Positions 19,263 through 21,228 of a stretch of 64,000 nucleotides of DNA are shown here, in pieces. The stretch covers positions 3,097 through 67,096 of the forward strand of contig JAZLKO010000008.1 in NCBI GenBank assembly GCA_045597685.1, read 5' to 3'. The notes beneath the pieces were generated by a model. It was not told the DNA's origin and made no database searches. It saw only the letters and a program-made list of their open reading frames with translations. Both the position numbers and the translations under genes were made by a program. This DNA comes from Prevotella sp. (GTDB taxonomy: Bacteria; Bacteroidota; Bacteroidia; Bacteroidales; Bacteroidaceae). Position 1 is the stretch's first letter. Every line of letters starts with the position of its first letter.

Positions 19263-19396
19263 CAAAGGTAAGAAAAAGGTTGAGGGTTGAGGGTTGAGGG
19301 TTGAGGGTTTTTATGATTTTTTTAATAAAAAAAACTTAATTGTCAATCGCCAATTATCAATTATCAATTAAAAAACAAAGTTTTTTCATACCTTTG
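19263..19396. promoter_or_regulatory. Divergent promoter pair with the heptamer cassette
   Basis: -7 boxes at 19263-19270 (-) and 19389-19396 (+); (GGGTTGA)x4 - core - (CAATTAT)n. Confidence 0.7.
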
Positions 19397-19414: not shown

Positions 19415-20530
19415 ATGAAAGATTATATTGTATCTGCTCGGAAATATCGTCCAATGACCTTTGAAAGTGTGGTTGGGCAAGAGGCGTTGACTACTACGCT
19501 CAAGAATGCCGTTGTTTCAGGCAAGTTGGCTCATGCTTATCTGTTTTGTGGTCCACGTGGAGTCGGCAAAACCACTTGTGCACGAATTTTTGCAAAATCC
19601 ATCAATTGTTTCAATCCTGCAAGTGATGGCGAGGCTTGCAATGAATGCGAAAGCTGTGTGGCTTTCAACGAACAACGCTCATACAACATTGTAGAACTCG
19701 ACGCAGCGAGCAATAATTCTGTCGAGAACATCAAGGCATTAATCGAACAGACTCGCATTCCGCCACAGGTGGGTAAGTACAAGGTGTTTATTATCGACGA
19801 GGTGCACATGCTTTCCGCAAATGCTTTCAATGCTTTCCTTAAAACGTTGGAAGAGCCAAATCCAAATGTAATCTTCATCCTTGCCACAACCGAGAAACAA
19901 AAAATCTTGCCAACGATTCTCAGCCGTTGCCAGATTTATGATTTTGAACGCATGTCGGTGCAGAATATTATCAACCATTTGGAATCCATCTGCACAAAGG
20001 AAAATGTGGCATACGAAGTCGAGGCTTTGGAACTGATTGCCGAAAAGGCTGACGGGGGAATGCGCGATGCTTTGTCAATCCTCGACCAGACCATAAGCTT
20101 CTGCCAGGGTAAGATAACCTACGAAAAAGTCCTCGAAGACTTAAACATTCTCGACGCAGAAAACTATTTCAAGATAGTTGATTTAAGTCTTGAAAACAAG
20201 GTTGGTGAGGTAATGATTCTGCTCAACAACATCATAAATGCTGGTTTTGACGGGGGCAGACTCGTTGATGGATTAGCCTCGCATTGTCGTAACCTGTTGA
20301 TGGCTAAAGATGATTCCACACTGCCGCTGTTGGAATGTAGCGAAAAAATGCGACAGCGTTATAGCGAACAAGCCAAGAGATGCCCAGTGAAATTCTTGTA
20401 TCAGTCATTGAAGATAATGAATGATTGCGACATTAATTATCGTTCAAGTCATAACAAACGCTTGCTTGTTGAATTGACTTTGATACAAGTGGCTCAAGTT
20501 ACGCAAGAGGGTGAAGCCTCCTTTCCCTAA
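19415..20530 (+). CDS. dnaX: DNA polymerase III gamma/tau, clamp-loader ATPase part (371 aa)
   Basis: ARKYRP, GPRGVGKTT, ELDAASNNSV, IIDEVHML, SRCQ; stops at TCC TTT CCC TAA. Confidence 0.95.
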   Translation: MKDYIVSARKYRPMTFESVVGQEALTTTLKNAVVSGKLAHAYLFCGPRGVGKTTCARIFAKSINCFNPASDGEACNECESCVAFNEQRSYNIVELDAASNNSVENIKALIEQTRIPPQVGKYKVFIIDEVHMLSANAFNAFLKTLEEPNPNVIFILATTEKQKILPTILSRCQIYDFERMSVQNIINHLESICTKENVAYEVEALELIAEKADGGMRDALSILDQTISFCQGKITYEKVLEDLNILDAENYFKIVDLSLENKVGEVMILLNNIINAGFDGGRLVDGLASHCRNLLMAKDDSTLPLLECSEKMRQRYSEQAKRCPVKFLYQSLKIMNDCDINYRSSHNKRLLVELTLIQVAQVTQEGEASFP

Positions 20531-21152
20531 GTTAAAACAGCTCTTTGATTTCACCGTCTCAGCCATACGTCAGCAGACTGCTGGCAACAAGCCTGAATTG
20601 CCGAAGACTCCAGCAATAGTTGCAACTACTCATGTCGCGTCTAATAATAATCCACAACATTCAGAAGTAAAGCGTCCTGCATTAAAGCTGTCGGCAATAG
20701 GCACATCAGCAAGTGCCATATTGGAACGTCGTTATGGCAATAAAGTCGTTGCTTCATCAAATACAGAACAAGCAGAACATGAATCTCAGTCGTTTACTTT
20801 GGAGGATTTGCGCCGCAATTGGATAATAATGTGCAACAACATGCCAGAATGCGATGCTGCCAATGCCGAACGCATGAAAAGCATGGATGTTCATATTACC
20901 ATTTTCCCAGAAGTCATGGTAACGATAACCAACAGCATTTTGGAAAAATACATGTTGCAGATTAAGAGCAACATCGAAGCCACGCTGAAAAGACTGCTGC
21001 ACAATGATGACATCAAGGTGTCGTATCATTTGGCCGCCAACGAAGAACTGAAGGGTAAAGGCCTGACACAACGAGAAATCATGGCAATTCTCTACAAGAC
21101 CAACCCCGCAATAGCACGACTGAACAATTTCTTCAATTTCGAAATCCTCTAA
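20511..21152 (+). CDS. dnaX: Tau C-terminal region in the +1 frame relative to dnaX
   Basis: Low-complexity linker, then FTLEDL..W...KTNPAIARL..FNFEIL, resembling the Bacteroidales DnaX C-terminus as I recall it; overlaps the upstream ORF by 20 nt. Confidence 0.75.
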   Translation: MKPPFPKLKQLFDFTVSAIRQQTAGNKPELPKTPAIVATTHVASNNNPQHSEVKRPALKLSAIGTSASAILERRYGNKVVASSNTEQAEHESQSFTLEDLRRNWIIMCNNMPECDAANAERMKSMDVHITIFPEVMVTITNSILEKYMLQIKSNIEATLKRLLHNDDIKVSYHLAANEELKGKGLTQREIMAILYKTNPAIARLNNFFNFEIL

Positions 21153-21156
21153 CCCC

Positions 21157-21220
21157 TATTGCTATCTATTGAAATCTATTGCTATCTATTGCTATCTATT
21201 GAAATCTATTCCCAACTATT
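21157..21220 (+). repeat. Decamer tandem array
   Basis: CTATTGCTAT/CTATTGAAAT x5 plus degenerate copies. Confidence 0.9.
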
Positions 21221-21228
21221 ACTCCCCC

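What the first reader, a model, noticed from the sequence alone, without database searches (positions are those of the whole stretch)
20505..20535. Candidate programmed +1 frameshift making full-length DnaX tau
The ATPase ORF ends TCC TTT CCC TAA and the tau-like C-terminal ORF continues in +1. A +1 slip re-pairs cognately (TTT to TTC Phe, CCC to CCT Pro) with a stop codon in the A site, the shifty-stop geometry known from prfB; TCC TTT C also matches the influenza PA-X +1 motif. Termination would give a 371-aa gamma and shifting a ~578-aa tau, the opposite logic to E. coli dnaX, where a -1 shift yields the short form. I cannot confirm whether this site has been described.
Basis: partly seen in the sequence, partly recalled or inferred. 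Interest (0 to 1): 0.75.

Follow-up and report, generated by a model that had tools for sequence, protein, structure and literature searches.

The report
Conserved +1 frameshift site in dnaX
In a group of uncultured gut Prevotella species, the essential replication gene dnaX is split between two reading frames at an invariant CCC-stop site, so the full-length tau subunit can most likely be made only when ribosomes slip forward one base, a route I did not find described for this gene.

Summary
dnaX ORF1 (19415-20530, 371 aa) ends TCC TTT CCC TAA, and the tau C-terminal half continues in the +1 frame to 21152. It is not an assembly error. Ten protein clusters 82-100% identical to ORF1 are all exactly 371 aa long, and 22 independent assemblies besides the window carry the split. 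These genes form one clade (100/100 support) nested among continuous ~600-aa Prevotella dnaX genes.

Synonymous sites between lineages are saturated, yet every lineage keeps [TTT|TAC] CCC TA[A|G] [G|A] at codon 371-372. Of 70 conserved four-fold-degenerate codons in ORF1, only this CCC is invariant, and CCC makes up 6% of Pro codons in this genome.

ORF2 stays open (191-241 codons) and conserved from its first residues (P-[K/R]-L-K-x-[L/I]-F, as in continuous relatives). Five of eight lineages have no ATG/GTG/TTG upstream of that motif, and the window's GTG 20511 is not conserved.

Best reading (0.8): a programmed +1 ribosomal frameshift. Peptidyl-tRNA-Pro(UGG) slips from CCC to CCU while a UAA/UAG stop sits in the A site. 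Termination gives a gamma-like protein and the shift gives tau. I found no SD-like element or RNA structure acting as stimulator.

Two-ORF dnaX genes that need recoding for tau are known, but with -1/poly-A sites. This is a new variant. No reads or protein data could be checked.

The parts
19415..20530 (+). dnaX ORF1: clamp-loader ATPase domains I-III, 371 aa plus TAA. This is the gamma-like termination product.
   Evidence: Pfam hits DNA_pol3_delta2, DNAX_ATPase_lid and DNA_pol3_gamma3 cover residues 22-363. The 371-aa length is the same in 10 related protein clusters.
20522..20531 (+). Proposed shift site TTT CCC TAA G. The P-site codon CCC (20525-27) re-pairs as CCU (20526-28), the stop TAA (20528-30) sits in the A site, and the +1-frame A-site codon is AAG (20529-31).
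   Evidence: CCC_TAR_R is invariant in all lineages. It is the only invariant codon among 70 conserved four-fold-degenerate columns of ORF1. CCC makes up 6.1% of Pro codons in the genome.
20526..21152 (+). dnaX ORF2 in the +1 frame: the tau-specific linker and C-terminal domain, 208 codons from CCT, then TAA.
   Evidence: Open in all 8 lineages analysed in full (191-241 codons), with indels in multiples of 3 and pN below pS. It aligns with the C-terminal part of continuous DnaX; P1, L3 and K4 are conserved in at least 90% of sequences. The model of residues 90-208 has pLDDT above 90.
20484..20530 (+). Overlap zone in which both frames are open. Any frame change must occur here; in the tightest relatives the zone is only 24 nt.
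20511..20513 (+). GTG in the +1 frame, the candidate independent start for ORF2. Rejected because it is not conserved.
   Evidence: The corresponding codon is GCG or GAA in L033, L034, L040, L041, L045 and L047. There is no ATG/GTG/TTG for 294-321 nt after the site in L041-43, or for 153 nt in L045.

Best explanation
This is a programmed +1 ribosomal frameshift at a 'shifty stop'. Ribosomes translating dnaX reach codon 371, CCC, which is rare in this genome. ARAGORN finds only tRNA-Pro(UGG) and tRNA-Pro(CGG) genes, so CCC is apparently read only by tRNA-Pro(UGG) through wobble. The next codon is a stop (UAA here, UAG in most relatives).

While the stop waits for a release factor, a fraction of peptidyl-tRNA-Pro slips one base forward from CCC to CCU. 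The new A-site codon AAG (AGG or AGA in relatives) is then read, and translation continues in the +1 frame to give a 578-aa tau (...GEASFP-KLKQLF...). Ribosomes that terminate release a 371-aa gamma-like protein made of clamp-loader domains I-III only. In lineages with TTT before CCC, a slip of tRNA-Phe from UUU to UUC while the rare CCC waits in the A site would give the same protein and may add to the yield.

Shown here: the split is real and inherited. The site is under nucleotide-level selection. ORF2 is a maintained coding region homologous to the tau C-terminus from its first codon. Most lineages offer no canonical start codon for it.

Inferred: the ribosome is the agent, CCC-to-CCU re-pairing is the mechanism, and both products are made. 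The efficiency is unknown.
For: (1) Not an error. Ten clusters 82-100% identical to ORF1 are all exactly 371 aa. The split occurs in 22 further independent assemblies from ENA, Logan, NCBI and JGI, in different gene neighbourhoods.

(2) Single origin. The split genes form one clade with 100/100 support and a stem of 0.22, nested among continuous genes.

(3) Old and maintained. pS between lineages is 0.70-0.89, which is saturated. ORF1 pN is 0.06-0.15. ORF2 stays open with pN 0.36-0.56, below pS.

(4) Site-level selection. [TTT|TAC] CCC TAR R is invariant. Codon 371 is the only invariant codon among 70 conserved four-fold columns, and the 8 other conserved Pro columns use CCC in 1 of 64 cells. 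CCC is 4 of 146 other Pro codons in these genes and 6.1% genome-wide.

(5) ORF2 is translated from the junction. P-[K/R]-L-K-x-[L/I]-F directly follows the site and matches P-KRLKSLF in continuous relatives. Five of eight lineages have no ATG/GTG/TTG between the upstream +1-frame stop and this motif.

(6) Only the fused protein passes the full-length DnaX model NF011531, and the genome holds no second dnaX.

(7) tRNA supply. G000 has tRNA-Pro UGG and CGG only. No GGG-type gene was found in 20 Prevotella genomes, while the UGG control pattern hit 16 of 20. Cognate tRNAs exist for AAG, AGG and AGA.

(8) Precedent. CCC_UGA gives +1 shifting in Listeria phage tsh genes, and 15% in E. coli pheL, where the penultimate Phe matters (review PMC5009743). 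Here the penultimate residue is always F or Y. Bacteroidia prfB shifts +1 at about 7% without SD pairing (PMC10798248).

(9) Internal control. A second split gene in this genome (mutS2) is continuous in the three clade members where it was found, as expected of an ordinary mutation or error and unlike dnaX.
Against: No stimulatory element was found. The upstream purine-rich GARGGNGAR lies about 13 nt from CCC and varies at third positions. No RNA structure is conserved, the downstream fold has z = 0.01, and there is no Rfam match. Efficiency could therefore be low for an essential product.

The stop is followed by G or A, which from general knowledge of E. coli is not a weak termination context.

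Relative to the N-terminal part, the C-terminal domain evolves somewhat faster in the split clade than in continuous relatives (ratio 4.25 against 3.2). This could mean relaxed constraint.
Confidence: 0.8

Rival explanations
1. Genuinely split gene. ORF2 is translated on its own, by internal initiation or by termination-reinitiation after the ORF1 stop, and works as a separate polypeptide.
For: Gene callers annotate ORF2 as a separate gene with various starts. Some lineages have a GTG or TTG near the junction: window GTG at -15, L044 GTG at -15, L047 GTG at -39 and TTG at +6, L033/34/40 TTG at +15.
Against: No start position is conserved. L041-43 have no ATG/GTG/TTG for 294-321 nt after the site, and L045 none for 153 nt. 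Yet the P-[K/R]-L-K-x-[L/I]-F motif at the junction is conserved in all lineages, and in L045 the L-G-T-S motif also lies upstream of the first start. This reading does not explain the invariance of the rare CCC codon in ORF1. From general knowledge of E. coli tau, its role is to tether the polymerase and helicase to the clamp loader through a covalent link.
Confidence: 0.08
2. The shift happens one codon earlier. tRNA-Phe slips from UUU to UUC while the rare CCC codon waits in the A site, the PA-X-like reading offered by the first reader.
For: TTT CCC is present in most lineages. UUU to UUC re-pairs cognately, CCC is rare (6.1%), and the product is identical.
Against: Lineages L045/46, L047-49 and L065 have TAC CCC, where a +1 slip of tRNA-Tyr to ACC is not cognate. 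They still keep the same architecture. The stop after CCC would not need to be conserved under this model. At most this is a contributing route in the TTT lineages.
Confidence: 0.1
3. The correction is at the RNA level. RNA polymerase slips at the short T/C runs, so that some mRNAs lack one base and encode tau in a single frame.
For: Transcriptional realignment is used by Thermus dnaX and is proposed for the two-ORF poly-A dnaX genes (PMC3711429).
Against: Those cases need runs of 7-10 A. Here the longest run is 3-4 nt (TTT, CCC or CCCC), and there is no poly-A or poly-T tract.
Confidence: 0.03
4. Assembly or sequencing error, or a recent inactivating mutation (pseudogene).
For: The genome is a 117-contig MAG. 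Distant relatives have one continuous ORF. Another gene in the same genome (mutS2) carries a non-conserved frame break.
Against: The identical frame break is present in 22 other assemblies made by different pipelines and in lineages with saturated synonymous divergence. ORF2 has stayed open and conserved throughout.
Confidence: 0.01

Closest known systems
Two-ORF dnaX genes in which tau requires recoding (Antonov et al. 2013, NAR 41:6514, PMC3711429; noted in Atkins et al. 2016, PMC5009743)
   Same: The logic is the same. Standard decoding stops right after the recoding site and yields the short gamma-like product. The long tau needs a frame change at the domain III/linker boundary.
   Different: Those 17 genes (12 genera, including Chlorobi) need a -1 change. 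Twelve of them carry runs of 7-10 A and are attributed to transcriptional realignment or an E. coli-like -1 shift. Here the change is +1 at CCC_UAR, with no homopolymer run, in Prevotella.
CCC_UGA +1 shifty stops: Listeria phage PSA/A118-type tsh genes and E. coli pheL (as reviewed in PMC5009743)
   Same: The P-site codon is CCC and the next codon is a stop. tRNA-Pro re-pairs on CCU. CCC is rare in the host (5% of Pro codons in Listeria, 6% here). In pheL the peptide ends F-P and the Phe matters; here it always ends F-P or Y-P.
   Different: The stop here is UAA or UAG, never UGA, because the +1 codon must encode K or R. The phage sites use 3' pseudoknots, and none is found here. The pheL shift is regarded as incidental, whereas here an essential protein depends on it.
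prfB (RF2) programmed +1 frameshift, CUU_UGA_C
   Same: It is a +1 slip of a P-site tRNA with a stop codon in the A site, in a bacterial chromosomal gene, and the full-length product needs the shift. In Bacteroidia it works without SD pairing (PMC10798248).
   Different: The shift codon differs (CCC, not CUU). There is no SD-like element 3 nt upstream and no obvious autoregulatory loop. [quoted passage not shown] This genome's own prfB appears to be unframeshifted.
E. coli dnaX -1 programmed frameshift (A_AAA_AAG with SD-like element and 3' stem-loop)
   Same: The same gene, and the same position at the end of domain III. Both gamma-like and tau-like proteins are expected from one mRNA.
   Different: The direction is opposite, and the product made by recoding is opposite (tau here, gamma there). 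There is no heptamer, no stem-loop and no Rfam match.

Membership tests
Shifty-stop +1 programmed ribosomal frameshift (prfB / CCC_UGA class) | A 0-frame stop codon lies immediately 3' of a codon whose P-site tRNA can re-pair in the +1 frame | tested here: met
   CCC TAA G; CCC to CCU is cognate for tRNA-Pro(UGG). Present in all lineages.
Shifty-stop +1 programmed ribosomal frameshift (prfB / CCC_UGA class) | The shift site is conserved at nucleotide level beyond what the encoded protein requires | tested here: met
   It is the only invariant codon among 70 conserved four-fold-degenerate columns, at saturated pS. CCC is otherwise avoided.
Shifty-stop +1 programmed ribosomal frameshift (prfB / CCC_UGA class) | The +1 ORF encodes the continuation of the same protein and lacks its own conserved start | tested here: met
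Shifty-stop +1 programmed ribosomal frameshift (prfB / CCC_UGA class) | A stimulator is present: an SD-like element 3 nt upstream (prfB) or a 3' pseudoknot (Listeria phages) | tested here: not met
   The purine-rich tract is about 13 nt upstream and variable. There is no conserved structure and no covariation. SD-less prfB sites in Flavobacteriales show that this feature is not obligatory.
Shifty-stop +1 programmed ribosomal frameshift (prfB / CCC_UGA class) | The trans-frame protein has been demonstrated | not testable with these tools
   This needs mass spectrometry, a western blot or a reporter.
E. coli-type dnaX -1 frameshift element (Rfam DnaX element) | A_AAA_AAG heptamer with a 3' stem-loop, where the recoding product is gamma | tested here: not met
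   There is no heptamer at the junction, no Rfam hit at E up to 1 and no stable downstream hairpin. The frame offset is +1.
Two-ORF dnaX with tau by recoding (Antonov 2013) | The gamma stop directly follows the recoding site, and tau is encoded across two ORFs | tested here: met
Two-ORF dnaX with tau by recoding (Antonov 2013) | A -1 offset at a poly-A tract | tested here: not met
   The offset is +1 and there is no A-run.
DnaX (DNA polymerase III gamma/tau) protein family | A full-length match to the curated equivalog model, with ATPase domains I-III | tested here: met
   NF011531 scores 741.6 bits against a cut-off of 685 for the fused protein. TIGR02397 dnaX_nterm scores 442.6 bits. Pfam domains cover residues 22-363.
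DnaX (DNA polymerase III gamma/tau) protein family | The C-terminal tau-specific domain is homologous to that of continuous-ORF relatives | tested here: met
   ORF2 aligns end to end with the C-terminal part of 25 continuous DnaX proteins (15-34% identity, with W99 and N160 invariant). PF28557 is recorded on ORF2 in relatives. Similarity to solved E. coli tau domain V was not found by Foldseek, so equivalence with E. coli domains IV and V is inferred only.

The most novel reading that the evidence does not exclude
The site is more than a tolerated 'saviour' of an old indel. It would be a working switch that gives these Prevotella a true gamma subunit, which Bacteroidia are not known to have. 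It would set the gamma:tau ratio by competition between release factor (RF1 alone at the UAG sites) and slippage of wobble-paired tRNA-Pro(UGG). Replisome composition would then respond to termination capacity or proline-tRNA status. With no SD or RNA-structure stimulator, the signal would be the minimal motif plus the nascent ...[F/Y]-P peptide. It would also be a rare bacterial chromosomal essential gene, besides prfB, that depends on a +1 frameshift.
Probability: 0.25. Interest if true: 0.8.

Novelty: new variant of a known kind. Interest (0 to 1): 0.65.

Why it matters
dnaX is the textbook bacterial recoding gene, and known examples use -1 slippage or transcriptional slippage. From my own knowledge, chromosomal bacterial genes that rely on +1 frameshifting are few; prfB is the main one.

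Here an essential replication subunit appears to depend on a +1 shift at a minimal CCC-stop motif. The organisms are ones whose ribosomes ignore Shine-Dalgarno sequences, and the site has been kept through a species radiation.

The case offers a natural system for asking three questions. How efficient can a stimulator-less shifty stop be? Does a gamma subunit have a role outside Proteobacteria? How does an indel in an essential gene become fixed and then maintained by recoding?

There is also a practical consequence. Annotation pipelines call these genes as a truncated 'gamma/tau' plus a DUF8439 protein, so tau appears to be missing from these genomes.

Tried and rejected

Independent start at GTG 20511: rejected because it is not conserved.

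SD-like stimulator: the GGAGG-like tract is about 13 nt upstream and variable, unlike prfB.

RNA structure: RNAalifold gives -3.6 kcal/mol with no covariation. The window's downstream 93 nt fold no better than shuffles. There is no Rfam hit.

Clade-specific loss of tRNA-Pro(GGG) as the trigger: rejected. The gene is absent from all 20 Prevotella genomes tested, split clade or not. It is a genus-wide predisposition.

Quadruplet-reading tRNA: ARAGORN finds none in this genome.

Genome-wide use of CCC-stop recoding: one other CCC_TAA site with a +1 continuation (mutS2) turned out not to be conserved in relatives. A third site (C23) is not a credible gene continuation. CCC-stop gene ends are not depleted: 4 observed against 3.2 expected.

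Fold match of ORF2 to solved tau domain V: there was no significant PDB match. The best hits are weak KH-like folds.

Literature: searches for dnaX with frameshifting in Prevotella, Bacteroidetes or Bacteroidales, or with 'shifty stop', found no description of this site.

Full report
**What is in the window.** The dnaX ATPase ORF runs from ATG 19415 to TAA 20528-30 and encodes 371 aa. It ends GAA GCC TCC TTT CCC TAA. The +1 frame is open from about 20484 to 21152 and encodes 208 further codons counted from CCT 20526. The fused 578-aa protein passes the curated full-length DnaX model NF011531 at 741.6 bits against a cut-off of 685. Pfam places clamp-loader domains I-III in residues 22-363. The genome is a 2.3-Mb, 117-contig MAG, 92% complete, assigned to Prevotella by the names on related records. 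It has no second dnaX.

**Error, mutation or inherited feature.** All 24 same-genus species representatives, and most of the other families sampled, have one continuous dnaX ORF of about 560-680 aa. The same holds for every genome other than G000 among the best rows of a 400-genome sample of the genus, where identity to ORF1 is at most 79%.

A protein search with ORF1 then found ten clusters at 82-100% identity, and every one is exactly 371 aa. Hits at 80% identity or lower are about 590 aa.

I fetched their contigs, and a pattern scan of GTDB genomes and JGI metagenomes added more. Besides the window this gives 22 independent assemblies: ENA MEGAHIT contigs, Logan contigs, NCBI MAGs including horse-faeces MAGs and 'Candidatus Equicola faecalis', and a JGI co-assembly. 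They fall into about ten lineages with different gene neighbourhoods. All end ORF1 at the same codon and continue in the +1 frame.

On a tree of the ATPase part, the split genes form a single clade (100/100 support, stem 0.22) nested among continuous Prevotella genes. Synonymous differences between the lineages are saturated (pS 0.70-0.89). The split arose once, is old, and has been kept through a species radiation. An assembly error or recent pseudogene is excluded.

A useful internal contrast is a second frame-broken gene in this genome, mutS2 on contig C111. It breaks inside an octamer repeat, and it is continuous in the three clade members where it was found. That is how an ordinary mutation or error behaves.

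**What is conserved.** Across all lineages the junction reads [TTT or TAC] CCC TA[A or G] [G or A], while flanking synonymous positions vary freely. ORF1 has 70 columns in which a four-fold-degenerate amino acid is conserved in all eight lineages. Exactly one of these has an invariant codon: CCC at position 371. The eight other conserved Pro columns use CCC in 1 of 64 cells. CCC accounts for 4 of 146 other Pro codons in these dnaX genes and for 6.1% of Pro codons in 1,472 long ORFs of the genome. This is selection on nucleotides, not on the protein.

**ORF2 is translated, and from the junction.** In the eight lineages analysed in full, ORF2 stays open for 191-241 codons. Length differences are multiples of three, including a polymorphic repeat tract in L041-43 (714, 696 and 723 nt). 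pN is below pS.

The first residues after the site, P-[K/R]-L-K-x-[L/I]-F, match P-KRLKSLF in the continuous relatives. In the relatives' DNA the homologous codons are CCT AAG AGA CTG AAA. The ancestral CCT is therefore retained in the +1 frame, and the extra base is the C in front of it. That C came with a shortening of the variable linker.

In five of eight lineages there is no ATG, GTG or TTG between the upstream +1-frame stop (24-54 nt before the site) and this motif. L041-43 have none for about 100 codons after the site, and L045 none for 51. The window's GTG 20511 corresponds to GCG or GAA elsewhere. Independent initiation cannot explain why the junction motif is conserved.

**Mechanism.** The geometry is that of a shifty stop. 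Peptidyl-tRNA-Pro on CCC can re-pair with CCU one base downstream while a stop codon occupies the A site. The incoming +1 codon is AAG, AGG or AGA, and the genome encodes cognate tRNAs for all three.

ARAGORN finds only tRNA-Pro(UGG) and tRNA-Pro(CGG) in the genome, whereas the Thr, Ser, Leu and Gly boxes each have a G34 species. Pattern searches found no GGG-anticodon tRNA-Pro in any of 20 Prevotella genomes, while the UGG control pattern hit 16 of 20. CCC is therefore read by U34 wobble throughout the genus. This fits its rarity and should weaken 0-frame pairing; the weakening is an inference. The trait is a genus-wide predisposition and is not specific to the split clade.

The nascent chain always ends F-P or Y-P. 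In E. coli pheL, which ends F-P-stop at CCC_UGA and shifts +1 at 15%, the penultimate Phe matters (review PMC5009743).

I found no stimulator. The purine-rich tract lies about 13 nt upstream and is variable. No RNA structure is conserved, the downstream fold is no better than shuffled sequence, and Rfam gives nothing. In Flavobacterium johnsoniae, prfB shifts +1 at about 7% without SD pairing (PMC10798248), so a stimulator-less site is plausible in this class.

In the TTT lineages, a UUU-to-UUC slip with the rare CCC in the A site would give the same protein and may contribute. It cannot be the common mechanism, because three lineages have TAC.

**Comparison with what is known.** Antonov et al. 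2013 described two-ORF dnaX genes in which tau needs recoding. Those have a -1 offset, mostly at runs of 7-10 A, and are attributed to transcriptional realignment. The 2016 review by Atkins et al. repeats this. CCC_UGA +1 sites are known from Listeria phages and pheL.

My searches found no paper describing a +1 site in dnaX. Earlier notes of this scan report other, different dnaX recoding motifs in uncultured Bacteroidales. I did not test them; they suggest that this gene acquires recoding repeatedly.

I class the present case as a new variant of a known kind. The logic is the known one (tau by recoding) and the site type is known (CCC-stop), but the combination is new, in a new lineage and in an essential gene.

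**Caveats.** The efficiency is unknown. The stop is followed by a purine, not a classically weak context. Relative to the N-terminal part, the C-terminal domain evolves somewhat faster in the split clade than in continuous relatives (ratio 4.25 against 3.2). The ORF2 C-terminal domain models confidently (pLDDT above 90 for residues 90-208) but has no significant match among solved structures, so its equivalence to E. coli tau domains IV and V rests on position and homology to continuous DnaX only.

**Verdict.** Confidence is 0.8 for a programmed +1 ribosomal frameshift at CCC_UAR, and interest is 0.65.

Noticed in passing
G000 contig C111:13699-16219, minus strand (outside the window): A mutS2-like gene is split. 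A 674-codon ORF ends ...ESPNP at AAT CCC TAA A, inside an AAATCCCT octamer repeat that is preceded by GGAATCAAG-type repeats. The KOW-like and Smr part continues in the +1 frame. In the three other members of the split-dnaX clade where it was found (G417, G419, G420; not found in G418) and in two continuous-dnaX relatives (G012, G013), MutS2 is one continuous ORF of 830-860 aa. This break is therefore lineage-specific: a repeat indel, an assembly error, or possibly rescued at the same kind of site.
   Followed up: partly
G000 contigs C14 and C23 (loci L063, L062): prfB (SPF motif) appears as one uninterrupted ORF, with no CUU_UGA frameshift site at its start. prfA is also present. This organism therefore seems to lack the classical RF2 autoregulatory frameshift.
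   Followed up: partly
20 Prevotella genomes (G000, G002-G060 sample, G417-G420): No tRNA-Pro with anticodon GGG was detected in any of these genomes. The tRNA-Pro(UGG) control pattern hit 16 of 20. CCU and CCC therefore appear to be read by a U34 tRNA across the genus, which fits CCC being only 6% of Pro codons.
   Followed up: partly
L041:4112-4825, L042, L043, L068 (tau linker): In one lineage the tau linker holds an in-frame, length-polymorphic repeat that encodes (G/R/E)-(A/T)-N units. ORF2 is 696, 714 or 723 nt in different samples. The changes are always multiples of 9, so the +1 frame is preserved.
   Followed up: partly
window 20790-21149 (ORF2 residues 90-208): The tau C-terminal domain (DUF8439 in relatives) models confidently as a small alpha/beta domain. 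Its best PDB neighbours, all weak (E of 0.004 or higher), are KH-like helicase-interacting modules: DnaA domain I and DciA DUF721. This hints that the domain may contact DnaB.
   Followed up: partly
G035:C1:102886-103992 (another family of the same order): The dnaX match there lies in an open frame of only 380 aa and is apparently not at a contig end. It may be another, independent split of dnaX.
   Followed up: no
window 21153-21225 and 19263-19396: dnaX is flanked by heptamer-type repeat tracts: CTATTGC/CTATTGA units just after the ORF2 stop, and a CAATTAT/CAATCGC tract upstream. These are the repeat cassettes that other notes on this genome describe.
   Followed up: no
protein P0131 (642 aa): A continuous-type Prevotella DnaX carries an exact internal duplication of about 49 aa (EPPAHVIFILATTEKHK...NVAQQE) in the ATPase domain. 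It sits on a 2.6-kb contig and is probably an assembly artefact.
   Followed up: no
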